DNA of 58,236 nt, taken from Candidatus Micrarchaeota archaeon. Its GTDB lineage: Archaea; Micrarchaeota; Micrarchaeia; Micrarchaeales; CABMGC01. Under the pieces are notes generated by a model. It was not told the origin of the DNA. It did no database searches and saw only the letters and a program-made list of their open reading frames with translations. Where the stretch lies: assembly GCA_021791725.1 (NCBI GenBank), contig JAJYVZ010000001.1:1-58236 (forward strand), given 5' to 3'. The position numbers were made by a program, and so were the translations under genes. Shown piece after piece: positions 16,622-54,070 of the stretch (the first letter of the stretch is position 1; each line of letters begins with the position of its first letter).

Positions 16622-17275
16622 CTATATGGTTATAGTGTTTGTGTAGACGAGCGCAACAACCACAATCACTACAACGATGATCACAAGCGGGATGGCTATG
16701 CCCTTTCCCGGCTTCTTTAACTTTGCGGCAAGCTTCTCTGCATCTTCCACCTGCCCTTCCTTCTGCTCGGTCTGCTGCGCTGGCGGCACCGCACCGGCCT
16801 GTGACGTCTTTATCTGGGTATCAGACTTGACCTTAAGGAATCCGTTCTCGGTGAGGAGCAGTTCAGCGTTGCCATTCTTGAGCTCGTATATGACAAGGCC
16901 CTGCTTGTAGAGCTTGTACAGCCTCAGGGCAAGGTCTCTTGACCTTATGTTAAGGCTTGAGGAAAGCTCCATCGGCATTCTCTTGCCTCCGGAGAGCTGG
17001 TTCAGTATCACAGAATCCAGCGGATCGAAGGGCTGCGTGCTCTTCTCATCCGCCTCCTTTATCAGGTCCCTGCCCTTCTGCGTCACGCTCATTCCGTTGG
17101 GGCCGGGAAAGGTCGAGACGAACTCTATCAGGCCCTTCTGCTTGAGCGTGCCTGCTATGTTAGAGCCGTCAAAAAAACTCGCGTTTATCATCCCAGGGAA
17201 TTTCTCCAGCGTCGCATCCGGAGTTATCCTTAGTATGCATGCAAGATCCATGAAATTTATGTCGTCAACGTCCAT
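16622..17275 (-). CDS. Hypothetical protein with two winged-helix-like segments and a C-terminal transmembrane anchor
   Basis: Two similar GLIEF.../GLVIYELKNG segments are followed by a Gln/Glu-rich linker and the hydrophobic tail IAIPLVIIVVVIVVVALVY. Confidence 0.5.
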   Translation of the reverse strand: MDVDDINFMDLACILRITPDATLEKFPGMINASFFDGSNIAGTLKQKGLIEFVSTFPGPNGMSVTQKGRDLIKEADEKSTQPFDPLDSVILNQLSGGKRMPMELSSSLNIRSRDLALRLYKLYKQGLVIYELKNGNAELLLTENGFLKVKSDTQIKTSQAGAVPPAQQTEQKEGQVEDAEKLAAKLKKPGKGIAIPLVIIVVVIVVVALVYTNTITI

Positions 17276-23384: not shown

Positions 23385-23506
23385 CGCCAAGGATGGGATT
23401 TGAACCCATAATCCCCGAAGGGACCGGTTTGCTTGTCGCATCATCTATAAATCAGCTCTTGAAATAAACTCAAGACCGGCGCAATACCAGATTATGCAAC
23501 CTTGGC
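23385..23506 (-). tRNA. tRNA-Ser (anticodon UGA) with an approximately 39-nt intron at the canonical 37/38 position
   Basis: Cloverleaf read by eye. Acceptor stem is GCCAAGG/CCTTGGC. The anticodon arm is CCGGT-CTTGAG[intron]A-ACCGG. The long variable arm is TCCCTTCGGGGA and the T arm is ATGGG-TTCAAAT-CCCAT. Intron segment CAAG can pair with the anticodon-loop CTTG (BHB-like). CCA is not encoded. Confidence 0.85.
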
Positions 23507-25963: not shown

Positions 25964-26698
25964 TCAACCGATGTATTGGTCGAAGACGGCTTTGTACGTG
26001 TCTATGGTACCTATGTCGAACCATCTTCCCTCGTACACCACACCCTGCACTTCCTTCCTCTCAGCCAGCCATTTTATGAAGTAGCCTGGCGAATCCCTGT
26101 GGTTCTTGTCGTCGAGATAAGACTTTATGCTTCCCAGGTCTTTCCTGGGCAGCGCGTATATGCCTGTGCTTATAAGCGTTGATTCCGGATTTTCAGGTTT
26201 CTCCGCGAACTCGGTTATCCTGCCGTTCTCCACCCTGACAACGCCGAAGCGCCTTGCTTCATCCTTCGACTTTATGTCGTATAATCCTATCGTCGGTTTT
26301 CCAGATTCCCTGAAACTGCCATGGAGCTTTTTCATGTCGAAATCGTAGAGGTTGTCGCCGGCTATTATCATTAGGTCATCATCTATGCCTGCATTCTCGA
26401 TAACGTACTCTATTCCCCCTACGGCGCCGAGCTTCTCGCCGTCGTTTGTCGTAGGCTCCACAACGAGCCTAAGCTCCATACTGTTCTTGTACCCGGATCT
26501 TTCTACCCACAAGGCGAACTGATCGGCGAACTTCTTGTTTGCGGATATTGTTATTCTCTTTAGTCCGAGGCCGTTTATGCTTTCCATTATGTAGTCTAGT
26601 ATCGGCCTCCCGTTTACGGGCAGCAGCGGCTTTGGCACGAAATACGTTATCGGCTCAAGCCTTGTCGCAAATCCGCCGCAGAGTATTATCGCCTCCAT
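25964..26698 (-). CDS. Sugar-phosphate nucleotidyltransferase (glucose-1-phosphate thymidylyl/uridylyltransferase family)
   Basis: MEAIILCGGFATRLEPITYFVPKPLLPV signature. Confidence 0.85.
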   Translation of the reverse strand: MEAIILCGGFATRLEPITYFVPKPLLPVNGRPILDYIMESINGLGLKRITISANKKFADQFALWVERSGYKNSMELRLVVEPTTNDGEKLGAVGGIEYVIENAGIDDDLMIIAGDNLYDFDMKKLHGSFRESGKPTIGLYDIKSKDEARRFGVVRVENGRITEFAEKPENPESTLISTGIYALPRKDLGSIKSYLDDKNHRDSPGYFIKWLAERKEVQGVVYEGRWFDIGTIDTYKAVFDQYIG

Positions 26699-26764
26699 AA
26701 TCTCATTATTATTAATTTTTGATTTTATATATAAATAAGAAGATTAAAGATAATTCCTGTTTGC

Positions 26765-30875: not shown

Positions 30876-31214
30876 ATGATAGGCAAAAACACAGGGGAAA
30901 CAAGGCCAGTATCAGTGCCGGTCGCGTTCGACATACTTGAGAAAAGGAAGAAGGAGAGCGAGCTTGGATACGAGCAGCAGCTCGCGTTCGAGCATGGAGA
31001 GAAGGCCGCGCTGCTCAGCAGGGAGAAGGCAGAGAAGCTAGAGAAGGAACTTGTCGAATTGGGGGTGAAGGTAAAGACTGCGATAAAGATAGTGGACGTA
31101 ATGCCGCTAAACGAGACGCAGCTAAGGCAGGTCCTTGTGATAGAGAAGAGACAGGTGGAGGACGAGGACGTGAAGAAGCTCCTAGAGGCAGTAAGCAAAT
31201 ACAGGGAAAAGTAA
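30876..31214 (+). CDS. rpoF: RNA polymerase subunit Rpo4 (RpoF)
   Basis: Length about 110 aa with LGYEQQLAFEH... and KIVDVMPLNETQLRQV, the Rpb4/RpoF pattern. A DUF655 gene follows, as in many archaea. Confidence 0.8.
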   Translation: MIGKNTGETRPVSVPVAFDILEKRKKESELGYEQQLAFEHGEKAALLSREKAEKLEKELVELGVKVKTAIKIVDVMPLNETQLRQVLVIEKRQVEDEDVKKLLEAVSKYREK

Positions 31215-31229
31215 TCCCATGGAAGCGCG

Positions 31230-31823
31230 GTGCGGCATATGTATGAGAGAGAACAGCCCAGAAAGGAGAGCCTTGAAGATTATGCAATAGTGCTAGACTA
31301 TCTGCCTACAGGCAAATCCTTCTCAGTCAAGTCCGAGCCGATAACGCAGCTCCTTGGGGAGGAGAGGTTTACGCTTCTTGAGGCTATCCTCAAGCCCGGA
31401 ACAGGAGTGAAGAACGAGGAAAGGGTGTACATAGGCAAGGGCGAACGCGACAAGATACAGCTCATAAAATTGCGCATAACGTACAACGAGCTCACAGAAG
31501 GCGCGCGCAATGAGCTTCCGCACGCGATATCGCAGATAATAAAGGGCAACGAGAAGAGATTCATAGACTTCTTCAACGGCGCAGGGCCCATAAACATACG
31601 TGAGCACTCGCTTGAGTTGCTTCCTGGAATAGGCAAGCGATACCTCAACGCGATACTCAAGGCCAGGGAGGAGAAGCCCTTCGAGAGCTTCCAGGACATG
31701 TCAGGAAGGGTGCAGCTGCTTCAGGATCCGGTAAGGCTGCTTGTGGAGAGGGTTATCATGGAGCTCAAGGGAGAGAGCAGGTTCTACATACTCACAAGGC
31801 CGTACAGCAGGAGATACGAATAG
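31230..31823 (+). CDS. DUF655-family putative RNA-binding protein (OB + helix-hairpin-helix)
   Basis: EDYAIVLDYLPTGK, FTLLEAILKPG, FIDFFNGAGPINIREHSLELLPGIGKR. Confidence 0.8.
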   Translation: MRHMYEREQPRKESLEDYAIVLDYLPTGKSFSVKSEPITQLLGEERFTLLEAILKPGTGVKNEERVYIGKGERDKIQLIKLRITYNELTEGARNELPHAISQIIKGNEKRFIDFFNGAGPINIREHSLELLPGIGKRYLNAILKAREEKPFESFQDMSGRVQLLQDPVRLLVERVIMELKGESRFYILTRPYSRRYE

Positions 31824-31902: not shown

Positions 31903-32193
31903 CTAGGAATGTCTCTCAATATGCCTCTGCTGCGCTATTATCTTTCTGGTTAGCGACTTAGAGGTCTTTATCTCGACTACGTATGCAGAGCCCCTTTTTT
32001 CTATTACTCTGCCAACCTTTCCCCTGTACCTCGGATGCGGTATGTCGGCGGTGTTGCCTTTTGGCACTATGACTACATTGTCTCCTATACTGAACTTCTT
32101 TATCCGATTTGCTATAGTTAGGGATGATGCTTTGTGGTGCTTTGAGAGCCTTCTCGTCCTCCTTGCGAATATTCCTTTTGACATGCCGGCCAC
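31903..32193 (-). CDS. rpl21e: Ribosomal protein eL21
   Basis: SKGIFARRTR..., FSIGDNVVIVPKGN and PHPRYRGKVGRVIEKRGSAYVVEI. Confidence 0.9.
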   Translation of the reverse strand: MAGMSKGIFARRTRRLSKHHKASSLTIANRIKKFSIGDNVVIVPKGNTADIPHPRYRGKVGRVIEKRGSAYVVEIKTSKSLTRKIIAQQRHIERHS

Positions 32194-32270: not shown

Positions 32271-32693
32271 TTAGTTGTTAGATGTTTTTACGACTCTGAT
32301 CTCCCTGTTTAAAAACAATTCAACGGCGTTTTCGTAAACCATCTTTCCGTTCTCGTCCTTTTTGACTGAGTTGTTGCACGATAATACGGCCCGTTTTACA
32401 ACCGGGGCGACAGGCGATGTTACAGTTACGAAATTGTATATCAGCGTAACCACCGCGTTGCACTCCTCTGTCAGAAATCTCGCTATGTCTATCTTATTGC
32501 TTGCGAACGCCAGCATTGCAGCGGTCTTCCCATCCGCATCCTTTGCATCTATGTTGCCCCCCAGGGCCTTGATGTCCCTTGCCAGCTTCTTCACGTCCTC
32601 GATCCTGCCGTTTCTTGCGGCTTCCCTGAGCCCAGATTCCTTTGCTGCCTTCACTGTTTCTATAAGCGGATCTTTTCCAGAGAAACTCTCCAT
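32271..32693 (-). CDS. Small protein with one or two ankyrin-like repeats
   Basis: AARNGRIEDVKKL...GGNIDAKDADGKTAAMLAFASNKIDIARFL. Confidence 0.55.
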   Translation of the reverse strand: MESFSGKDPLIETVKAAKESGLREAARNGRIEDVKKLARDIKALGGNIDAKDADGKTAAMLAFASNKIDIARFLTEECNAVVTLIYNFVTVTSPVAPVVKRAVLSCNNSVKKDENGKMVYENAVELFLNREIRVVKTSNN

Positions 32694-32756
32694 AAAATCA
32701 TGTAGCGTGCTCCGAATAGCTATATATATCTTTAGTGTAATATTCTATCGGTAACG

Positions 32757-33062
32757 ATGGCGAAGGCGAAGAGAGGGAAAGGAAGGGTGCTTAGGCCTGA
32801 CTTCAGGGTCGAGAACATAGTGGCAAGCGCAGACCTTGGGGTAGACCTTGACCTCTACAGCATAGCAAAGGCCTCTCCGGATATAGACTACGAGCCCGAG
32901 CAGTTCCCGGGAGCGATATGCAAGATCCATGAGCCGAAGACCGCGCTTCTCCTATTCAAGAACGGGAAGATAATCTGCACAGGCGCGAAGACCGAGGCCG
33001 ACATAAGAAGGGCCATAGACAAGGCAATAAAGATAATAAGGAACTATACGCTTGCAAGCTAG
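32757..33062 (+). CDS. tbp: TATA-binding protein homolog consisting of a single TBP repeat (101 aa)
   Basis: FRVENIVASADLGVDLDL..YEPEQFPGAICKIHEPKTALLLFKNGKIICTGAKTEADIRRAIDKAIKII is one complete TBP repeat. The ORF then ends, with no second repeat. Confidence 0.8.
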   Translation: MAKAKRGKGRVLRPDFRVENIVASADLGVDLDLYSIAKASPDIDYEPEQFPGAICKIHEPKTALLLFKNGKIICTGAKTEADIRRAIDKAIKIIRNYTLAS

Positions 33063-33264
33063 TTTTAAGGCGAATCTTAGATATTATCTTAGATGACTCT
33101 TTATCCCCCTTTGCACTTTTTGATCTTTGAAACCTTGACATGCTTGGATCGTTGAAATAGCAATTCCCTGAAATTGGACAATGAAACCTTCCTCTCACGA
33201 CGAAAGACGTTGTCCTGCCTATGGGAGATATTCCGGGAGTGGCCTTTTCCAGGAAGAAAAACTT

Positions 33265-46365: not shown

Positions 46366-47841
46366 ATGGGCAACGAAGTGCTTGAATCGTATCTAAGTTC
46401 TACTCCGCTCATGCAGCAGCATCTCGACAGCTACAACAGGTTCATTGACATAGGGATACAGCGCATAATAGACGAGCAGAAGGTCATAGAGCCGAACGTG
46501 GAGGGCTTTGCGCTCAAGCTCGGAAAATTAAGGCTTGACAGGCCGTCTATAATAGAGGCCGACAGCTCAAGGCGCAACATACTGCCGAACGAGGCCAGGC
46601 TTAGGAACCTTACGTACGCTGCGCCAATGTTCCTTGAGCTAATACCGGTAATAAGGGGCATAGAGAAGCCATCTTCCTATGGCGAGGTCTTCATAGGAGA
46701 ACTGCCGGTCATGTTAAAGAGTAGTTTGTGCAACATAAACCTTTACAACAGGGGCCAGCTCACAGAGAACGGCGAGGACCCCGATGACCCCGGAGGCTAC
46801 TTCATAATAAAGGGTACGGAACGCGCTCTGGTGGGTCTTGAGGACATAGCGCCCAACAGGATAATAACTACGCTTGAGAAGGATGGCGCAGAGGTTGTCA
46901 GCAAGGTGTTCTCCACCTCTACGAACTTCAGGGCGAGATGCACTACAACCAGGAACATGCACGGCATGTTCAATGTCAACTTCCCCACGGCGCCGAAGAA
47001 CATAGACCTTGTGCTCGCGCTCAAGGCCCTTGGCATGCAGGCAAAGGAGATAATAGAGATATCCAGCGACATAGAGGTCGTGAAGAACGACATGCTTCTT
47101 AACGTAGAGTCCAGCAAGGGCGCCGAGATGCCTGCTGCCGAGGCTGTGCTTGAGATCGGAAGGCTCTCTGCGCCGAACCAAGCGGCTGAATATCAGCAGA
47201 AAAGGGCAGAGACGCAGCTCGATACCTATCTTCTTCCGCACATAGGCTCCGATCCCGAGCTCAGGAAGCAGAAGGCAAGATACCTTCTTGACATGGCGCG
47301 TCGTGCGGCTCTCGTAGGAAGCCGGTACATAAAACAGGACGACAAGGACCACTACGCAAACAAGAGAGTCAAGTTCTCGGGCAAGCTTATGGAGGATCTG
47401 TTCGCATATGCGTTCAAGTTCTTCGTGAAGGACGTGAAGTACCAGATAGAGAGGACGAATGCCAGGGGAAGGAGAATGAGCATACAGACAATAATAAGCC
47501 CTGACACCATAACGGAGAAGATATCATATGCGATGGGAACCGGAACGTGGGTGGCAGGGCAGACAGGAATTTCGCAGGTGCTTGACAGGACAAACATAGT
47601 GAGCATGAATGCGCACCTTCGAAGGATAAAGTCGCCGCTTGCAAAGAAACACCCGCATTTCAAGGCAAGGGACGTGCACGGCACGCAGTGGGGCAAGATC
47701 TGCCCTTCGGAATCCCCTGAAGGGCAGGAGGTTGGCCTGACCAAGTACCTTGCAATAATGTCCAAGGTCACCATAGGCACTGACGACAAGTTCATAGAGG
47801 GCAAGATAAAGGAGATAGGAAAACTGAAGAGTTCTGCATGA
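46366..47841 (+). CDS. rpoB2: RNA polymerase subunit B'' (Rpo2N, N-terminal part of split subunit B)
   Basis: LMQQHLDSYNRFI, PNEARLRNLTYAAP, GGYFIIKGTERA and KSPLAKKHPHFKARDVHGTQWGKICPSESPEG. Confidence 0.95.
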   Translation: MGNEVLESYLSSTPLMQQHLDSYNRFIDIGIQRIIDEQKVIEPNVEGFALKLGKLRLDRPSIIEADSSRRNILPNEARLRNLTYAAPMFLELIPVIRGIEKPSSYGEVFIGELPVMLKSSLCNINLYNRGQLTENGEDPDDPGGYFIIKGTERALVGLEDIAPNRIITTLEKDGAEVVSKVFSTSTNFRARCTTTRNMHGMFNVNFPTAPKNIDLVLALKALGMQAKEIIEISSDIEVVKNDMLLNVESSKGAEMPAAEAVLEIGRLSAPNQAAEYQQKRAETQLDTYLLPHIGSDPELRKQKARYLLDMARRAALVGSRYIKQDDKDHYANKRVKFSGKLMEDLFAYAFKFFVKDVKYQIERTNARGRRMSIQTIISPDTITEKISYAMGTGTWVAGQTGISQVLDRTNIVSMNAHLRRIKSPLAKKHPHFKARDVHGTQWGKICPSESPEGQEVGLTKYLAIMSKVTIGTDDKFIEGKIKEIGKLKSSA

Positions 47842-47860: not shown

Positions 47861-49690
47861 CTGGCAAAGAAGATAAACGAGAGATGCTACGTATACCTCA
47901 ACGACAGGATAATAGGATACGTCGAGAACGGCGAGGAGTATGCAAAGGAGATAAGGGACGCAAGAAGGAAGGGCATGCTCTCCGGGGAGATAAACGTAGC
48001 TTACATAGAGCGGCTCAACGCCGTCCGCATAAACACGGATTTCGGAAGGATCAGAAAGCCATATGTCGTAGTCGAGAATGGGGTCTCGAAGCTGACGAAC
48101 GAGATAAGGGAGAAGATAAGGAACAAGGAAGTGGATTTCAATTACCTGACAAGGAACGGCATAGTAGAGTACCTTGACGCAGAAGAGGAGGAGAATGCGC
48201 TTGTTGCCTTCTTCGACAGCGATATAACAAAGGAGAACACGCACGTTGAGGCCGACCTTGCCGGCATATTCGGGTTTACGCTGAGCGTGTCGCCCTTCCC
48301 AGAGCACAACAGCCTGGCAAGGCATGCAATGCTCTCCAACTTCATAAAGCAGAGCGAGGGTCTATATGCTACGAACTTCGGCCTCAGGTTCGATTCGCGG
48401 GCATACCTGCTTTTCTATCCGCAGAACCCCATCGTATCGACAACAGCGTACAGGAACACAAAGATAGAGACGCATCCCTCAGGGCAGAACCTGATAGTCG
48501 CGCTCTCTACATATTACGGATACAACATGAAAGACGCCATAGTGCTTAACAAAGCTGCCGTAGACAGGGGCATGGGGCGCAGCATGTTCTACAAGACATA
48601 CTCCGACGAGGAAAGAAGGTATCCCGGCGGGCAGAAGGACAGCTTCAGGATACCGCCGGCGACGTCCGAAGGGTACCTGGGCGAACACGCATACGCCAAT
48701 CTCAGCGACGACGGGATAATAGAGCCCGAGACCAAGATAGACGAGGGGAATATAGTCATAGGGAAGGTCTCGCCGCCAAGATTCCTCGAGGAGAACGTAG
48801 GTGCGTCCGGGCTTGAGGAAAGGCTTCGCGATTCGTCGACATCACTCAAGGGCGGGGAGAGCGGCATAGTAGACAGCGTCATATTCACAGAATCAACAGG
48901 CGCGACCAAGGTCGTCAAGGTAAGGATAAGGAGCCTGAGGATACCAGAGAACGGCGACAAGTTCGCCAGCAGGCACGGGCAGAAAGGGGTAGTTGCGCTT
49001 ATAGTGAATCAGGAGGACATGCCTTTCAGCGACGACGGGATAATACCCGACATTCTTGTCAACCCGCACAGCATACCTACAAGGCTTACGTTCGGCCATC
49101 TGCTTGAAGAGATGGCAGGCAAGGTCGGAGCGGTCTCTGGAAAGCTCATGGACGGCACGGCATTCTCAGAGAAGGGGATAAACAGGATAGAAGAATACGG
49201 GAAGGAGCTCGAGGCGCGTGGCTTCGACAGGTACGGCAACGAGAACTTCTATGACGGCATAACCGGCAAGAGGTTCAAGGCGGAGATATTCAACGGCATA
49301 GTCTACTACAACAGGCTTTACCACATGGTAAGCAACAAGATGCAGGTAAGGAGCAGAGGCCCTGTGCAGATTCTCACGCACCAGCCTACGGAAGGCAAGG
49401 CGAGGCAGGGAGGCCTAAGATTCGGGGAGATGGAGAGAGACGTAATAGTCGGATACGGGGCAAGCCTTCTCTTAAAGGAAAGGCTCCTTGACCAGAGCGA
49501 CAAGGCATCGGTGCTCGTATGCAAGGAGTGCGGCAACATAGGATATTACGATTACATAAAGAGGACCGGCGCGTGCCAGATATGCAGGAGCACAAACCTT
49601 GCCGAGATAGAGATGAGCTACGCGTTCAAGCTCCTGCTTGACGAGATAAAGTCCTTGCACATAATGCCTAGGATACGCATGAGGGATTGA
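47861..49690 (+). CDS. rpoB1: RNA polymerase subunit B' (Rpo2C, C-terminal part of split subunit B); 5' end uncertain
   Basis: GDKFASRHGQKGV, PDILVNPHSIPTRLTFGHL, GGLRFGEMERD and a C-terminal Zn ribbon CKECG...CQIC. The first ATG is 47975, but the conserved N-terminal sequence YVYLNDRIIGYVENGEEYAKEIRDARRKG is encoded in frame upstream. I provisionally start at CTG 47861. Confidence 0.85.
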   Translation: MAKKINERCYVYLNDRIIGYVENGEEYAKEIRDARRKGMLSGEINVAYIERLNAVRINTDFGRIRKPYVVVENGVSKLTNEIREKIRNKEVDFNYLTRNGIVEYLDAEEEENALVAFFDSDITKENTHVEADLAGIFGFTLSVSPFPEHNSLARHAMLSNFIKQSEGLYATNFGLRFDSRAYLLFYPQNPIVSTTAYRNTKIETHPSGQNLIVALSTYYGYNMKDAIVLNKAAVDRGMGRSMFYKTYSDEERRYPGGQKDSFRIPPATSEGYLGEHAYANLSDDGIIEPETKIDEGNIVIGKVSPPRFLEENVGASGLEERLRDSSTSLKGGESGIVDSVIFTESTGATKVVKVRIRSLRIPENGDKFASRHGQKGVVALIVNQEDMPFSDDGIIPDILVNPHSIPTRLTFGHLLEEMAGKVGAVSGKLMDGTAFSEKGINRIEEYGKELEARGFDRYGNENFYDGITGKRFKAEIFNGIVYYNRLYHMVSNKMQVRSRGPVQILTHQPTEGKARQGGLRFGEMERDVIVGYGASLLLKERLLDQSDKASVLVCKECGNIGYYDYIKRTGACQICRSTNLAEIEMSYAFKLLLDEIKSLHIMPRIRMRD

Positions 49691-49691
49691 G

Positions 49692-52337
49692 ATGCAGACC
49701 GAAGCGATAAACAACATAAAGTTCGGGATACTTCCTTCAGAGACGATAAGGAAGGCCAGCGTAGTGAAGCTGAGCGTTCCCGACACATACAACGAGGACG
49801 GCTATCCGATAGACAACGGCCTTCTTGACCAGAGGATGGGCGTCATAGACCCAGGCCTCGTGTGCAAGACATGCGGAGCCAGGGCAAAGGTATGCCCCGG
49901 GCACTTTGGCCACATAGACCTGGTAAGGCCAGTGATACATTCGGAATTCTCCAAGATAATATACGCAGTGCTTGATTCGATATGTCAAAAATGCGGCAGA
50001 ATACTCATGACCGGAGAGCAGCTTGAGCAGAAGGCCGACGAGCTAAAGGAGATAATCGTTGAGGAGAAGCCGGCCCTGGAATCGCAGCACGAAGCGCCGC
50101 AGGAGAGAGAAGCGAAGGAAGATGAGAGCGGGAGCACGGATGAGAATGTGCAGAAACAAGGCAGGAGGTCGAAGACTGATCACGGGAGCGACAAGAGGAA
50201 GCGGGCGTCGATGTTCAAGAAGCTGAAGAGCATAAGGACATGCCCGCACTGCGGAGCCCCGCAGGAAAAGGTAAAGTTCGAGGCGCCTACATACTTTTAC
50301 ATAGGAGATAGGAGGATGCGGCCAGACGAGATACGCGACATGTTCGTAAAGGTGAGCGATGACGATCTTAGGTCGCTGGGCATAGACCCTGAGATAAGCA
50401 GGCCGGAGAACCTGATAATAACCGCGCTGCTCGTTCCTCCGGTCAACGTCAGGCCGTCAGTGACGCTTGAGACCGGAGAGAGGAGCGAGGACGACCTAAC
50501 GCACAAGCTTGTCGACATAATGAGGATAAACCAGAGACTCGAGCAGAACATAAACGCCGGTGCCCCGCCGATAATAATAGACGACCTGTGGGAGCTCCTG
50601 CAGTACAACATAACCACATACTTCAACAACGAGACATCAGGCATACCCCCAGCGCGTCACAGGAGCGGGCGCGCCTTGAAGACAATAGCCCAGAGGCTGA
50701 AGGGCAAGGAGGGGCGTTTCAGGTACAACCTTAGCGGGAAGAGAGTGAACTTCTCCGCAAGAACGGTCATATCGGTAGACCCGAACATAGGGCTTGACGA
50801 GGTTGGGGTGCCCAGGATAATAGCAGGCAAGCTTACTGTGCCGTTCTACGTTACCGAATGGAACTTCGAGAGGGCAAAGCAGATGATGGAAAGGACAGAG
50901 TACCCGATGGTCCTAAGCATAATATCAAAGGACGGCAAGAGGAAGAGGGTTACAGAGACAAACAGGGAGGAGCTGATAAAAGGAATGGTTCCGCACGACA
51001 TACTCGAGAGACAGCTGGTCGACGGCGACATAGCCGTATTCAATAGGCAGCCTTCGCTGCACAGGATGTCAATGATGGCGCACAAGGTCAAGGTGCTGCC
51101 AGGCAAGACGTTCAGGATGAACTTCTGCGTAACGCATCCGTACAATGCCGACTTCGACGGGGACGAGATGAACCTGCACATACCGCAGACGCTGGAGGCG
51201 CAGGCCGAGGCGGTATACCTGATGTCAGTGAAGGACCAGATATTCTCCCCCAGGGACGGCGCTGCCATAATATCCGGAGATGAGGACGACATAACCGGAC
51301 TTTACCTTCTTACGCTCGACGATACGGAACTGACAAAGGAAGACGCATGCTACCTGCTTGGGCTGATAGGCATAACGGAGCTGCCAGACCCGAGAAGGAA
51401 CGGCATGTACAGCGGCAAGGACATCTTCTCCATGTTGCTGCCCGAGGGCCTTGACGTGGAGCAGAAGGGAAAGAGCGGAACGTTCGAGGTGAAGAAAGGG
51501 AAGCTCACAGGAGGAAGGATAACAAAGGAGATATATACGCACAACTCGAGGCTACTGTCTGCGATAGCGTATGAGTACGGCGCCGAGGCGCTGAAGAGGT
51601 TCATAGAGATATCCGCAAGGCTCGCTGACGCTTACGTTACCCTTTACGGCACAACGGTGGGAATAAAGGAGTACCAGATAGACAGGAAGGTGCAGGAGGA
51701 GAGGGAAGCGTCGATAACCGAGATATTCGAGAGGACGAGCAAGCTGATAGAGCAGTACAAGGCGGGAAAGCTCGAGTCGCTCATAGGCTACACGGCCAAA
51801 CAGTCGCTTGAGATGCAGATCATGGCCGAGCTGGCAAAGGCCATAGACATAGAAGGCGAGATAATAACGAAGCATGCGAACGCAGACAACAATGCGGTGA
51901 GAATGGTGCGCGCGGGATCGAGGGGAAGCATATTCAACCTGGTGCAGATGTCAATGCTCCTGGGCCAGCAGTCAACCCTAAGCGGAGGAAGGATAAAGAG
52001 AGGATACTACACCAACAGGGTGCTGCCGCACATAAAGCCTGGATCGATAGACCCGAGATCAAGGGGGTTCGTAACCACCAACTTCTACATTGGGCTGTCG
52101 CCGATAGACATATACATGCACGCGATAGGGTCAAGGACATCGGTCGTATACAAGGCGCTCCTCACCGCGAGAAGCGGCTACCTTCAGAGAAGGCTGATGA
52201 ATGCGCTGCAGGACTATTACGTGGAGCAGGACCTGAGCGTGCGGGATGTGTACGGAAACATGATAGAGACGGTTTATGCCGGCGACGGAATAGACCCAGT
52301 GAAACTGTCGTTTACGAAGATAAAGGAGAAGAAGTGA
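49692..52337 (+). CDS. rpoA1: RNA polymerase subunit A' (Rpo1N)
   Basis: CKTCG...CPGHFGHIDL, RFRYNLSGKRVNFSARTVIS and NADFDGDEMNLH, the catalytic motif. Confidence 0.95.
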   Translation: MQTEAINNIKFGILPSETIRKASVVKLSVPDTYNEDGYPIDNGLLDQRMGVIDPGLVCKTCGARAKVCPGHFGHIDLVRPVIHSEFSKIIYAVLDSICQKCGRILMTGEQLEQKADELKEIIVEEKPALESQHEAPQEREAKEDESGSTDENVQKQGRRSKTDHGSDKRKRASMFKKLKSIRTCPHCGAPQEKVKFEAPTYFYIGDRRMRPDEIRDMFVKVSDDDLRSLGIDPEISRPENLIITALLVPPVNVRPSVTLETGERSEDDLTHKLVDIMRINQRLEQNINAGAPPIIIDDLWELLQYNITTYFNNETSGIPPARHRSGRALKTIAQRLKGKEGRFRYNLSGKRVNFSARTVISVDPNIGLDEVGVPRIIAGKLTVPFYVTEWNFERAKQMMERTEYPMVLSIISKDGKRKRVTETNREELIKGMVPHDILERQLVDGDIAVFNRQPSLHRMSMMAHKVKVLPGKTFRMNFCVTHPYNADFDGDEMNLHIPQTLEAQAEAVYLMSVKDQIFSPRDGAAIISGDEDDITGLYLLTLDDTELTKEDACYLLGLIGITELPDPRRNGMYSGKDIFSMLLPEGLDVEQKGKSGTFEVKKGKLTGGRITKEIYTHNSRLLSAIAYEYGAEALKRFIEISARLADAYVTLYGTTVGIKEYQIDRKVQEEREASITEIFERTSKLIEQYKAGKLESLIGYTAKQSLEMQIMAELAKAIDIEGEIITKHANADNNAVRMVRAGSRGSIFNLVQMSMLLGQQSTLSGGRIKRGYYTNRVLPHIKPGSIDPRSRGFVTTNFYIGLSPIDIYMHAIGSRTSVVYKALLTARSGYLQRRLMNALQDYYVEQDLSVRDVYGNMIETVYAGDGIDPVKLSFTKIKEKK

Positions 52338-52352
52338 TGTTTGGTCGATCTT

Positions 52353-53000
52353 ATGCCTATAGAGAAGAACATGAATCCGGAAGAGGGCGGAAGGGGAAGG
52401 AGCGAGCTGGAGCTTAAGGCCGAGAGGTTTTACGGCGAACTCACGCTGCCAAGATACCTTGAGCTCTCTTTGGTCAACGCCGCGCGGCAAGGCGACGCCT
52501 ATGGGTGCAAATTCTTAATCAGGAACGGGGTGGACGTGAATGCGAGGGGCATTGCTAACGATACGGCATTGATGCACGCATGCTCCCAGGGAGACGTGGA
52601 ATTCTCGAAATTCCTTATAGAGAATGGGGCAGACGTAAACGCACAGGAAAATTCAGGATTCAGTCCCCTGATGCTTGCGGTAACGGCCGGCGCGACCGAG
52701 ATAGTAAAAATGCTGCTTGAGAAAGGCGCGGATCCCAACGCAAGAAATAGCGAGGGAAACACGGCACTGATATATGCAAAGGCCGGCGCGCTGCTGGGAA
52801 TGGACGGCTATGAGTACATGATGCAGCTTCTTGAAGGCAGAGGAGCGACATTAAGCAAAGAGGACGAGGAGAAGGTCGATAAGAATATAAGAGAAGCAAA
52901 GAAAGAGCAAAACGAAATCGAGGCTCTTAGAAGGGACATGCAGGATGCGCAGGAATGGGGAGAAGAAGAACACGGAAACGGCAATTCAGGCCTAAATTAA
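52353..53000 (+). CDS. Ankyrin-repeat protein encoded inside the RNAP operon
   Basis: LVNAARQGDAYGCKFLIRNGVDVNA, TALMHACSQGDVEFSKFLIENGADVNA, SPLMLAVTAGATEIVKMLLEKGADPNA, and NTALIYA. The ORF opens 3 nt after the rpoA' stop, and its TAA overlaps the rpoA'' ATG. Confidence 0.85.
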   Translation: MPIEKNMNPEEGGRGRSELELKAERFYGELTLPRYLELSLVNAARQGDAYGCKFLIRNGVDVNARGIANDTALMHACSQGDVEFSKFLIENGADVNAQENSGFSPLMLAVTAGATEIVKMLLEKGADPNARNSEGNTALIYAKAGALLGMDGYEYMMQLLEGRGATLSKEDEEKVDKNIREAKKEQNEIEALRRDMQDAQEWGEEEHGNGNSGLN

Positions 53001-54070
53001 TGCAAGTGCATACGATGAAGAAAGAAAACGATAAAAATAATCTGAGCGTTACGCCTGGAGAGCCGGTAGGGGTTATTGCGGCGCAGTCCATAGGGGAGCC
53101 AGGCACGCAGATGATCCTTAGGTCCTTCCACAGGGCAGGAATGGCGTCGGTGACGGCGACCGCAGGGCTGCCGAGGCTTGCCGAGATAATAGACGCGAAG
53201 AAGAAGCCTGGCACGCCGTTCACATTCATATACCTTGACGGCAGGACGAGCAAGAACGCCGAGAGGGCCTTCGAGATCGCAAAGAAGATAAACGAGGTGA
53301 AGGTAAGGGACCTCGCGAAGAGGATAACGGAGAAGTTCTCGATAGGGGCGATAAAGATAGTGCTGAACGAGCAGGCCCTGAATTCCAACGAGCTCACGGC
53401 GCGGGAGGTTGCTGCGAAGATAGTAAAGTTGACTGAGTACGTAGCGAAGACGAAGAACAACGTGATACTGATCGGAACGCACACGAAAGACCTCAAGAAG
53501 ATACGCTCCTCGGCAGTCAGGATATCGGATCTTACCATAAGCGGCGTGGAAGGCGCAGGGCGTGCAGTAATACAGCAGGACAAGAACACCGGAGAGTTTT
53601 ACCTGATATCCGCGGACAGCAACTTGGAGAGCATAATGCAGATAGAAGGGGTTGACGGATCACGGATATACACCAACGACATCTTCAAGGTATACGGCGT
53701 GTTTGGGATAGAGGCCGCGAGGAACGCGATATACAGGGAACTGAAGAAGACGCTTGACGACCAGGGCATAACTGTTGACGGGCGGCACCTGATGCTTGTA
53801 GCCGACGCCATGACCTTCTCGGGCCAGATAAAGAACGTCGGCAGGCACGGGCTGAGCGGGGAGAAGGGATCTGTGCTAGCAAGGGCCGCATACGAAGAGA
53901 CCGTGAAGCACCTTGTCAACGCAGCCGCATTCGGAGAGGAGGACAGCATGAGGGGCATTACCGAGAGCGTGCTCCTGGGCAAGCAGATAATGGTCGGCAC
54001 CGGAACCGTAGAGCTCTCGGTAAGGAAGGAGGACATGGCCAAGATGAAGGCGAAGGAGCAGAAAAAGTGA
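53000..54070 (+). CDS. rpoA2: RNA polymerase subunit A'' (Rpo1C)
   Basis: VTPGEPVGVIAAQSIGEPGTQM, DGRHLMLVADAMTFSG and ETVKHLVNAAAFGEED. ATG at 53000 (TAATG junction). Confidence 0.95.
   Translation: MQVHTMKKENDKNNLSVTPGEPVGVIAAQSIGEPGTQMILRSFHRAGMASVTATAGLPRLAEIIDAKKKPGTPFTFIYLDGRTSKNAERAFEIAKKINEVKVRDLAKRITEKFSIGAIKIVLNEQALNSNELTAREVAAKIVKLTEYVAKTKNNVILIGTHTKDLKKIRSSAVRISDLTISGVEGAGRAVIQQDKNTGEFYLISADSNLESIMQIEGVDGSRIYTNDIFKVYGVFGIEAARNAIYRELKKTLDDQGITVDGRHLMLVADAMTFSGQIKNVGRHGLSGEKGSVLARAAYEETVKHLVNAAAFGEEDSMRGITESVLLGKQIMVGTGTVELSVRKEDMAKMKAKEQKK

What the first reader, a model, noticed from the sequence alone, without database searches (positions are those of the whole stretch)
32757..33062. 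Half-size TATA-binding protein made of a single TBP repeat
The 101-aa ORF has a short basic tail (MAKAKRGKGRVLRPD) followed by exactly one complete TBP repeat, then a stop. The repeat reads FRVENIVASADLGVDLDL...YEPEQFPGAICKIHEPKTALLLFKNGKIICTGAKTEADIRRAIDKAIKII.

Canonical archaeal and eukaryotic TBPs carry two tandem copies of this repeat (about 180 aa), which together form the DNA-binding saddle. This repeat mixes hallmarks of the N-repeat (ENIVAS) and the C-repeat (YEPEQFPG, GKIxCxGAK).

The 200 nt downstream (33063-33264) has stops in all plus-strand frames and nothing TBP-like. Both neighbours (an ankyrin-like gene and DedA) look intact. This therefore does not look like a frameshifted two-repeat gene.

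A one-repeat TBP would have to homodimerise to form a saddle, which is the postulated ancestral state of the fold. Alternatively it could act as a competitor or modulator of a full-length TBP encoded elsewhere.
Basis: partly seen in the sequence, partly recalled or inferred. Interest (0 to 1): 0.7.

Follow-up and report, generated by a model that had tools for sequence, protein, structure and literature searches.

The report
Half-size TATA-binding protein of Micrarchaeota
This is a real, strongly conserved gene for a TATA-binding protein with one repeat instead of the usual two, sitting where the normal gene sits in related archaea, so these tiny archaea probably start transcription with a symmetric dimer of half-proteins.

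Summary
Window 32757-33062 (+) encodes 101 aa: a basic tail plus exactly one full-length TBP repeat (Pfam PF00352, profile 1-85/85, E 1e-29).

It is not an artefact. The identical protein with identical neighbours occurs on at least 20 independently assembled contigs. One-repeat orthologues (52-84% identity) occur in 61 of 80 species-level Micrarchaeota genomes found. These include the complete genome of the cultured Ca. Micrarchaeum A_DKE.

The gene occupies the same position (divergent from L21e-Rpo4-DUF655) as the two-repeat tbp of sister Micrarchaeota. It is the best-conserved gene in its neighbourhood (dN/dS 0.007-0.16). It keeps the minor-groove Asn, both intercalating Phe and both TFB-contacting Glu.

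Best reading: it is the lineage's general TBP and acts as a homodimer, with promoter polarity left to TFB/BRE.

It is probably a derived state, not a relic. Repeat number changed at least twice within the phylum. Two-repeat relatives carry identical DNA tracts of up to 89 nt between their two repeats, which suggests recombination as the mechanism.

Not tested: whether a second TBP exists elsewhere in these genomes, and dimerisation itself. I found no publication describing this.

The parts
32757..33062 (+). Single-repeat tbp gene (101 aa plus stop)
   Evidence: ORF list and sequence. One PF00352 stretch. The identical protein is on at least 20 independent contigs.
32757..32798 (+). Basic N-terminal tail, residues 1-14 (MAKAKRGKGRVLRP)
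   Evidence: It lies outside the Pfam match. In 65 family members it is variable in length but always K/R-rich. pLDDT is low.
32799..33047 (+). One complete TBP repeat, residues 15-97 (S1-H1-S2-S3-S4-S5-H2)
   Evidence: Matches Pfam profile 1-85/85. The AF2 model has pLDDT 84.6. Foldseek: the top 44 PDB hits are all TBPs, with TM about 0.75 on the query and about 0.44 on the target, i.e. half a TBP.
32889..32912 (+). Stirrup motif Y45-E46-P47-E48-Q49-F50-P51-G52: the two TFB-contacting Glu and the first intercalating Phe
   Evidence: Invariant in 65 family members. E46 and E48 align with human TBP E284/E286 (C.L3.2/C.L3.4), which contact TFIIB/TFB (PMC7221094).
32955..32957 (+). Codon of F67, the second intercalating Phe (L5.1 position)
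   Evidence: Invariant. Equivalent to yeast F116 / human F305 (PMC7221094).
32721..32729 (.). Palindromic TATA-like box TATATATAT, 32 nt from the tbp ATG and 32 nt from the divergent Ank-like start codon
   Evidence: Read directly from the sequence. TATA-like boxes lie at similar distance upstream of tbp in relatives. Its function is inferred.
33063..33264 (.). Non-coding spacer downstream of tbp, with no remnant of a second repeat
   Evidence: Stops in all three plus-strand frames. No tblastn hit.
31903..32193 (-). Ribosomal protein L21e gene, the conserved divergent neighbour of tbp
   Evidence: Pfam PF01157. It is adjacent to tbp in about 70 of 80 related genomes, whether tbp has one or two repeats.
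30876..31823 (+). Rpo4/RpoF and DUF655 genes, part of the conserved L21e-Rpo4-DUF655 cluster that marks the tbp locus
   Evidence: Pfam hits. Synteny table.
32271..32693 (-). Ank-like gene inserted between L21e and tbp in this species only
   Evidence: Ank_2 at 25.7 bits, below the cut-off. It is absent from this position in the other loci.

Best explanation
The gene encodes the general TATA-binding protein of this Micrarchaeota archaeon in a half-size form.

Proposed mechanism (inferred):
- Two copies pair through their S1 strands and H2 helices, as the two repeats of a normal TBP do. This gives a perfectly symmetric ten-stranded saddle.
- The saddle binds and kinks a TATA box with four Phe side chains.
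- It offers two identical acidic stirrups, either of which can dock TFB.
- Promoter direction is then set only by TFB reading the BRE. This is already the rule in archaea (Bell et al. 1999 PNAS 96:13662; my knowledge, listed as ref. 28 of PMC5501381).

Proposed origin (inferred): the form arose inside Micrarchaeota from a two-repeat tbp whose repeats were being homogenised by intragenic recombination. The same recombination can delete, or re-create, exactly one repeat.

Shown here:
- one repeat only;
- conservation;
- positional orthology with canonical tbp;
- retained contact residues;
- the TBP-repeat fold (as a prediction);
- identical-DNA tracts between the repeats of relatives.

Inferred only:
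- dimerisation;
- being the only TBP of the cell;
- activity in initiation.
For: (1) Real gene. The identical 101-aa protein with the same neighbours occurs on at least 20 contigs from different samples and assemblers.

(2) Family.
- 106 of the 126 TBP relatives whose sequences I collected (120 listed plus 6 cluster members) have one repeat and are 93-130 aa.
- In GTDB species genomes, 61 of 80 loci have a one-repeat ORF and 19 a two-repeat ORF. There is never a second TBP ORF or a frameshifted remnant within +-10 kb, and there is one locus per genome.
- One-repeat genomes include the complete chromosomes NZ_CP060530.1 (Ca. Micrarchaeum A_DKE, cultured) and OY969902.1, and contigs of 1.05 Mb, 658 kb and 587 kb.

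(3) Positional orthology.
- Both the one-repeat and the two-repeat genes lie divergently next to L21e-Rpo4-DUF655.
- L091 (89 aa, one repeat) and L011 (174 aa, two repeats) share both flanks and are sisters at 90% bootstrap on neighbour genes.

(4) Constraint.
- TBP is 77% identical between the window and L034, against 48-67% for six neighbouring genes.
- dN/dS has a median of 0.16 and falls to 0.007 in the closest pair.
- 39 columns are invariant in 65 sequences. They include N20, E46, E48, F50, F67 and T75.

(5) Fold. AF2 gives pLDDT 84.6. Foldseek gives rmsd of about 1 A over about 80 residues to M. jannaschii and other TBPs, covering half of the target.

(6) Symmetry already present in the lineage.
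- The N and C repeats of Micrarchaeota two-repeat TBPs are 64-75% identical, against 40-57% in P. woesei, S. acidocaldarius and M. jannaschii.
- They share identical nucleotide runs of 89, 62, 46 and 42 nt.

(7) Context. The window is core chromosome: RNAP Rpo1/Rpo2 and ribosomal proteins L1, L10 and L21e.
Against: - No whole genome could be searched.
- No expression data were retrieved. The A_DKE supplementary tables are stored truncated.
- The known precedent for a one-domain TBP, halobacterial TbpA, is a non-essential accessory paralogue (PMC3597702).
- The deep nodes of my NJ trees are weakly supported.
Confidence: 0.7

Rival explanations
1. Accessory half-TBP. The cell has a normal two-repeat TBP elsewhere. 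This protein modulates or competes with it, for example by forming mixed or inactive complexes on TATA boxes, like halobacterial TbpA.
For: Single-TBP-domain paralogues that coexist with full-length TBPs are known, and TbpA is non-essential (PMC3597702). Absence of another TBP from the rest of the genome was not tested (limits).
Against: - The gene sits in the canonical tbp slot and replaces the two-repeat gene there.
- The states are mutually exclusive per genome among 80 species.
- It is the best-conserved gene of its neighbourhood, with very low dN/dS.
- It is on core chromosome, not on a plasmid.
- No two-repeat protein at all appeared among the named Micrarchaeaceae hits.
Confidence: 0.12
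2. Split TBP. A second, different half-TBP gene elsewhere supplies the other lobe, so the saddle is a heterodimer of two gene products. Split genes are common in DPANN archaea.
For: Split genes occur in this window (Rpo2 in two genes, Rpo1 in two genes). The rest of the genome was not searchable.
Against: - There was one locus per genome among the best 80 of 95 confirmed relatives, in a scan that picked up relatives down to 52% identity.
- The 50 one-repeat sequences of the window's own clade form one group (90% bootstrap). Almost all one-repeat genes, including the 11 outside that clade, sit at the same locus. There is no sign of two paralogous classes.
- The repeat carries the TFB-type stirrup, and the two-repeat relatives are already nearly symmetric.
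Confidence: 0.08
3. Non-initiation role. It acts as a monomeric double-strand nucleic-acid binder, as single TBP-like lobes do in RNase HIII or DNA glycosylases, and transcription initiation uses something else.
For: Single TBP-lobes bind duplexes in other contexts (PMC7221094; PMC3597702).
Against: - It is 45-60% identical to bona fide TBP repeats, not to those divergent lobes.
- The TFB-contacting Glu pair and both Phe are invariant.
- It is the positional orthologue of tbp.
Confidence: 0.05
4. Artefact or pseudogene: a truncated or frameshifted two-repeat gene, or an assembly error.
For: None found.
Against:: independent assemblies, no remnant in any frame in 61 genomes, and purifying selection.
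Confidence: 0.01

Closest known systems
Canonical archaeal TBP (two repeats, about 180 aa; e.g. P. woesei 1PCZ/1AIS, M. jannaschii 2Z8U, S. acidocaldarius 1MP9)
   Same: - Same Pfam family.
- 45-50% identity to each repeat.
- Same predicted repeat fold (rmsd about 1 A).
- Same DNA-contact Asn/Phe/Thr and TFB-contact Glu residues.
- Same genomic slot as the two-repeat tbp of sister Micrarchaeota.
   Different: One repeat per chain instead of two. It falls far below the NCBIfam TBP cut-offs (97 bits against 181-347). The saddle would have to be built from two chains and would be exactly, not pseudo-, symmetric.
Two-repeat TBPs of other Micrarchaeota (Anstonellaceae P0122, Bilamarchaeaceae P0124, L011, L055-L092)
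   Same: These are the closest relatives: 55-65% identity per repeat and the same L21e-Rpo4-DUF655 neighbourhood. Both of their repeats carry the ENIVAS, EYEPEQFPGAI and LLLFKNGK motifs.
   Different: They keep two repeats. Their repeats are unusually alike (64-75% aa) and share identical DNA tracts of up to 89 nt.
Halobacterial TbpA (single TBP domain)
   Same: A protein made of one bona fide TBP repeat that clusters with true TBPs (PMC3597702).
   Different: TbpA is a non-essential extra paralogue, very similar to the full-length TBPs of the same species. The Micrarchaeota protein occupies the canonical locus in place of the two-repeat gene, in a whole clade of at least 39 species.
Euryarchaeal monopartite TBP-domain proteins (e.g. 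P. furiosus NP_578195) and bacterial single TBP-lobes (RNase HIII N-domain, DNA glycosylase N-domain)
   Same: A single helix-grip TBP-like lobe (PMC3597702, PMC7221094).
   Different: Those are highly divergent in sequence and form separate clusters from TBP. This protein is a typical TBP repeat at E 1e-29.

Membership tests
TBP (Pfam PF00352 / archaeal TATA-box-binding protein) | Sequence match to the TBP repeat above the curated threshold | tested here: met
   102.3 bits against a cut-off of 22.9, profile 1-85/85.
TBP (Pfam PF00352 / archaeal TATA-box-binding protein) | Two tandem repeats in one chain forming the saddle | tested here: not met
   One stretch only. NCBIfam TBP models score 65-97 bits against cut-offs of 181-347.
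TBP (Pfam PF00352 / archaeal TATA-box-binding protein) | Helix-grip S1-H1-S2-S3-S4-S5-H2 fold of a TBP repeat | tested here: met
   AF2 pLDDT 84.6. The top 44 Foldseek PDB hits are all TBPs, TMq 0.72-0.78. This is a prediction, not a solved structure.
TBP (Pfam PF00352 / archaeal TATA-box-binding protein) | DNA-contact residues: minor-groove Asn in S1, two intercalating Phe, Thr in S5 | tested here: met
   N20, F50, F67 and T75 are invariant in 65 homologues. Equivalence to yeast F116 / human F305 follows PMC7221094 and the alignment.
TBP (Pfam PF00352 / archaeal TATA-box-binding protein) | Acidic stirrup residues that contact TFB/TFIIB (C.L3.2, C.L3.4) | tested here: met
   E46 and E48 in YEPEQF are invariant. 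Their role is taken from PMC7221094.
TBP (Pfam PF00352 / archaeal TATA-box-binding protein) | Orthology with the organism's tbp gene (same locus as in relatives) | tested here: met
   Divergent from L21e-Rpo4-DUF655 in about 70 of 80 genomes, for both repeat numbers.
TBP (Pfam PF00352 / archaeal TATA-box-binding protein) | Binds and bends TATA DNA and supports TFB/RNAP initiation | not testable with these tools
   Needs EMSA, FRET or in-vitro transcription.
Homodimeric (one-repeat) general TBP: proposed class | Forms a homodimer | not testable with these tools
No multimer model or measurement was made.
Homodimeric (one-repeat) general TBP: proposed class | Only TBP-repeat gene in the genome | tested here: inconclusive
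   There is no other TBP in the 58 kb window or within +-10 kb in 61 genomes, and one locus per genome in the scan. Whole genomes were not searchable.
TbpA-type accessory single-domain TBP | Coexists with, and is a recent copy of, full-length TBPs of the same genome; dispensable | tested here: inconclusive
   The locus-replacement pattern argues against this. Coexistence elsewhere in the genome was not testable.

The most novel reading that the evidence does not exclude
A whole archaeal lineage (the Micrarchaeum-type Micrarchaeota, including a cultured strain with a closed genome) runs all transcription initiation on a homodimeric, perfectly symmetric TBP.

Repeat number in this phylum flips between one and two through recombination between homogenised repeats. 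This makes it a living fusion/fission series for the textbook 'TBP arose from a homodimer' scenario.

A symmetric TBP with two TFB-competent stirrups could also nucleate two opposed pre-initiation complexes on one TATA box. That fits the palindromic TATA boxes lying exactly midway between divergent start codons in this window.
Probability: 0.55. Interest if true: 0.85.

Novelty: new variant of a known kind. Interest (0 to 1): 0.75.

Why it matters
TBP is the universal nucleator of archaeal and eukaryotic transcription. Its two-repeat architecture is treated as invariant, and the idea that it descends from a homodimer has had no natural test case among true TBPs that serve as the cell's main factor.

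Here there is a clade-wide, strongly constrained one-repeat TBP at the canonical locus, with closely related two-repeat sisters (for example L091 and L011). One member is in culture with a closed genome (A_DKE). This makes several questions directly testable:
- whether a symmetric TBP dimer can support oriented initiation;
- how much of the asymmetry of the pre-initiation complex is supplied by TFB/BRE alone;
- how repeat fusion and fission happen at the DNA level.

There is also a practical annotation issue. PGAP calls these proteins 'hypothetical protein' because they fall below the TBP model cut-offs. Genome surveys may therefore score Micrarchaeota as lacking TBP, or may count a half-protein as a normal one.

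Tried and rejected
(1) Second TBP in the window. A weak tblastn hit (E 0.02) at 16841-17092(-) was checked. hhalign probability is 4.5% and there is no Pfam family, so it is not TBP-like.

(2) Sole-TBP test.
- The supplementary annotation tables of the A_DKE paper are stored truncated and contain no PF00352, K03120 or TATA-box entry.
- Baker et al. 2010 and Bell et al. 1999 are not held.

(3) Literature. Eight searches and two supplement searches found nothing on a Micrarchaeota/DPANN half-size TBP. One further query was rejected by the search tool before it ran. One search was badly designed and uninformative.

(4) N-type or C-type origin of the window's repeat.
- The repeat tree and diagnostic-residue tracks give no clear answer for the main clade (N 4-7 against C 1-9).
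- Only L091 against L011 shows an N-then-C pattern, with few sites. I treat it as suggestive only.

(5) Direction of change. The NJ trees (371 and 86 columns, 50 bootstraps) have weak deep nodes. I therefore claim only 'at least two changes' and leave loss versus re-duplication open.

(6) Homodimer modelling.

Full report
**1.

Window 32757..33062 (+) is an ATG-started ORF of 101 aa.
- Pfam TBP (PF00352) matches once: residues 15-97 against profile positions 1-85 of 85, at 102.3 bits (cut-off 22.9) and E 1.3e-29.
- NCBIfam's full-length TBP models reach only 65-97 bits against cut-offs of 181-347. That is what a single repeat should give.
- Against solved structures the protein aligns equally well with the N and the C repeat of P. 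woesei TBP (75.7 and 77.8 bits, about 50% identity).
- The 202 nt downstream carries stops in all three plus-strand frames.
- tblastn with one- and two-repeat TBPs finds no other TBP-like sequence in the 58 kb window.
- A weak hit at 16841-17092(-) was examined and rejected.

**2. It is not an artefact**

The identical protein, with the same gene order, is found on at least 20 contigs from different samples and assemblers. These comprise ENA MEGAHIT assemblies, the NCBI MAGs GCA_027363615.1 and GCA_027335325.1, and several Logan SRA assemblies. The gene order is MoxR, Rpo4, DUF655, L21e, Ank-like, TBP, DedA, pelota.

The window is core chromosome. It also carries ribosomal proteins L1 and L10/P0 and the RNA polymerase genes Rpo2 (split) and Rpo1N/Rpo1C.

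**3. It belongs to a large conserved family**
- A protein search returned 810 relatives. Of the 126 sequences I collected (120 listed plus 6 cluster members), 106 have one repeat and are 93-130 aa long. They are labelled Candidatus Micrarchaeota, Micrarchaeia or Micrarchaeaceae where named.
- A scan of one genome per GTDB species returned 80 loci, each from a different genome.
- hmmsearch of all six-frame ORFs shows a one-repeat ORF in 61 loci and a two-repeat ORF in 19. No locus holds a second TBP gene or a frameshifted second repeat within +-10 kb.
- One-repeat genomes include the closed chromosome of the cultured Ca. Micrarchaeum sp. A_DKE (NZ_CP060530.1, 989,838 bp) and the chromosome OY969902.1 (852,977 bp). 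They also include contigs of 1.05 Mb, 658 kb and 587 kb.
- The A_DKE protein (WP_203134431.1 / QRF74309.1, 110 aa) is labelled 'TATA-box factor' or 'hypothetical protein'. ARMAN-1 has a near-identical 'hypothetical protein'.

**4. It is the positional orthologue of canonical tbp**
- The closest two-repeat TBPs (55-65% identity per repeat) come from other Micrarchaeota lineages: Anstonellaceae (P0122, 189 aa) and Bilamarchaeaceae (P0124, 186 aa).
- They lie divergently next to the L21e-Rpo4-DUF655 cluster. The one-repeat genes lie in the same place.
- Across the 80 loci about 70 have L21e immediately upstream on the opposite strand, whatever the repeat number.
- There are two layouts. All two-repeat loci and nine one-repeat loci have DUF655-Rpo4-L21e all on the minus strand. 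The window's clade has Rpo4-DUF655 inverted, with DedA and pelota downstream.
- The cleanest pair is L091 (89 aa, one repeat) and L011 (174 aa, two repeats). They share both flanks: L21e-Rpo4-DUF655 upstream, and an unknown gene, DUF1805 and S26e downstream. They are sisters at 90% bootstrap on the neighbour genes.

**5. It is under strong constraint and keeps the working parts of TBP**
- Between the window and L034, TBP is 77% identical. L21e, Rpo4, DUF655, DedA, pelota and MoxR are 57, 48, 65, 48, 57 and about 67% identical.
- Nei-Gojobori dN/dS has a median of 0.16 over 170 pairs. It falls to 0.007, 0.045 and 0.049 in the closest pairs.
- In 65 family members 39 columns are invariant. They include:
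  - N20, the central minor-groove Asn of S1;
  - Y45-E46-P47-E48-Q49-F50-P51-G52;
  - F67;
  - K68-N69-G70-K71;
  - C74-T75-G76.
- F50 and F67 are the two DNA-kinking Phe of a repeat. E46 and E48 align with human E284/E286 (C.L3.2/C.L3.4), the Glu pair that contacts Arg and Thr of TFIIB/TFB (PMC7221094; alignment).
- AlphaFold2 with this alignment gives pLDDT 84.6 and the S1-H1-S2-S3-S4-S5-H2 topology.
- The 44 best Foldseek matches in the PDB are all TBPs, with rmsd of about 1 A over about 80 residues. TM-score is about 0.75 normalised on the query and about 0.44 on the target, which is half a TBP.
- Only the length and sequence of the K/R-rich N-terminal tail vary.

**6. How it most likely works**

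A single TBP repeat covers only half of a TATA box and leaves the S1 edge strand unpaired. In every solved TBP the two repeats pair through S1/S1' and the H2 helices around a pseudo-dyad.

The simplest reading is that two copies of this protein do the same. That would give an exactly symmetric saddle with four intercalating Phe and two identical TFB-competent stirrups.

This is viable in archaea because promoter polarity there is imposed by TFB reading the BRE, not by TBP (Bell et al. 1999 PNAS 96:13662; my knowledge, cited as ref. 28 of PMC5501381).

The lineage was already close to this state.
- In Micrarchaeota two-repeat TBPs both repeats carry the TFB-type stirrup EYEPEQFPG.
- The two repeats are 64-75% identical. 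The figures are 40% for P. woesei, 48% for S. acidocaldarius, 57% for M. jannaschii and 54-56% for the Iainarchaeota-type outgroups.
- HMMER even aligns P0122's N repeat to the C repeat of reference TBPs and the reverse.

Dimerisation, DNA binding and activity are inferred, not shown.

**7. Origin**

All other archaea, the DPANN outgroups in the scan (L093, L094) and several Micrarchaeota lineages have two repeats. The one-repeat form therefore arose inside the phylum and is not a surviving primordial state.

On a neighbour-gene NJ tree (371 columns) the one-repeat state appears in four groups:
- a 39-taxon clade that includes the window and A_DKE;
- L081, L064, L086 and L063;
- L091, sister of the two-repeat L011 (90% bootstrap);
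- L076, L074, L078 and L069 (100% bootstrap), next to an 18-taxon two-repeat clade (84% bootstrap).

Deep nodes are weak, so I claim only at least two changes of repeat number.

In the repeat tree the main one-repeat clade (50 sequences) has 90% support. In several two-repeat lineages the N and C repeats are each other's closest relatives: L011 at 70%; L065, L092, L067, L070 and L080; and L093/L094. That fits either lineage-specific gene conversion or re-duplication of a one-repeat gene.

At the DNA level the two repeats of one gene share runs of identical nucleotides: 89 nt (L080), 62 nt (L092), 46 nt (L070, L011) and 42 nt (L058). The runs are 11-17 nt in L077, L071 and L094, and about 14 nt is expected for 73% identity. 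Between 44% and 79% of conserved residues use the same codon.

Such tracts show recent exchange between the repeats. They are also direct repeats on which recombination or slippage can remove, or add, exactly one repeat in frame.

L091 compared with L011 shows N-type diagnostic residues before the conserved core and C-type residues after it. A crossover deletion predicts this pattern, but the number of sites is small.

**8. What remains open**

The main gap is whether these genomes encode any other TBP repeat.
- The genome scan relied on 8-mers taken from the query, so it would miss a divergent paralogue.
- Whole chromosomes could not be fetched.
- The A_DKE supplementary tables are stored truncated.

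This leaves room for an accessory role (as for halobacterial TbpA; PMC3597702) or for a split, heterodimeric TBP. I give these 0.12 and 0.08. The reasons are that the gene replaces the two-repeat gene at the canonical locus, the two states never co-occur among the 80 genomes, and almost all one-repeat genes sit at that same locus.

**9. Comparison with what is known**

Single-TBP-domain proteins in archaea have been reported:
- halobacterial TbpA, a non-essential copy very similar to the full-length TBPs of the same species;
- a divergent euryarchaeal group that clusters apart from TBP (PMC3597702).

[quoted passage not shown] Neither paper mentions Micrarchaeota or ARMAN in its main text. The held supplements of PMC7221094 do not either, and none are held for PMC3597702. 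Eight full-text searches found no description of this family.

A survey of 1.84 billion cluster representatives shows how rare the form is. Among the 150 best TBP relatives only five are short one-stretch proteins (P0172, P0188, P0210, P0220, P0235), all of this family. Nearly all the rest have two stretches, and a few have three or four.

I therefore class it as a new variant of a known kind. It is a member of the TBP repeat family, but it fails the two-repeat architecture that defines a TBP protein. It differs from the known one-domain cases because it sits in the place of the main gene.

**10. Verdict**

The homodimer interpretation is the best-supported one (0.7). The 'ancestral relic' framing is not supported.

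Interest is 0.75. A specialist would be surprised by a clade-wide half-size TBP at the canonical locus in a culturable organism. It also turns the homodimer-origin hypothesis and the question of the source of promoter polarity into direct experiments.

Noticed in passing
window 32721-32729; also about 26725-26734: Palindromic TATA boxes lie midway between divergent start codons.
- TATATATAT is exactly 32 nt from both the Ank-like start (32693, -) and the tbp ATG (32757, +).
- TTATATATAA lies about 32 and 36 nt from the starts at 26698(-) and 26765(+).
These may be shared bidirectional promoters, which would suit a symmetric TBP.
   Followed up: partly
window 52353-53000 (+): A clear ankyrin-repeat gene (215 aa, several Ank families at E 1e-16 to 1e-24) lies between the RNA polymerase genes Rpo1N (49692-52337) and Rpo1C (52955-54070) and overlaps the start of the latter.
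   Followed up: no
window 32271-32693 (-): A sub-threshold Ank-like gene (140 aa; Ank_2 25.7 bits against a cut-off of 27.3) is inserted between L21e and tbp in this species only. In other genomes L21e directly abuts tbp.
   Followed up: partly
L080 10001-10570; L092; L070; L011 8001-8525; L058: Two-repeat tbp genes of other Micrarchaeota carry identical nucleotide tracts of 89, 62, 46, 46 and 42 nt between their own N and C repeats. This indicates recent intragenic gene conversion or recent duplication.
   Followed up: yes
L091 1052-1321 versus L011 8001-8525: This is a natural one-repeat/two-repeat sister pair. Both flanks are shared, but the tbp gene encodes 89 aa in one and 174 aa in the other.
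   Followed up: yes
protein P0154 (272 aa, from the representative search): An archaeal-type TBP with three repeats, the first two nearly identical. P0156 is a two-repeat TBP with a lysine-rich C-terminal tail of about 80 aa. P0155 and P0249 are plant TBPs with four repeats, probably fused gene models.
   Followed up: no
window 23385-23506 (-): The Rfam tRNA match spans 122 nt, which implies an intron-containing tRNA gene.
   Followed up: no
window 46366-47841 and 47975-49690 (+): RNA polymerase subunit Rpo2 is split into two genes separated by a 133-nt gap.
   Followed up: no
annotation of homologues (P0013, P0024, P0127, P0128 and others): NCBI PGAP labels the half-size proteins 'hypothetical protein', while IMG labels them 'TFIID TATA-box-binding protein'. 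Neither label flags the missing repeat.
   Followed up: partly
L060 (DATJLP010000011.1): An 89.8 kb contig with a Micrarchaeota-type one-repeat tbp and typical neighbours is filed in a MAG titled Candidatus Acidoferrum sp. (a bacterium). This is probably a binning contaminant.
   Followed up: no
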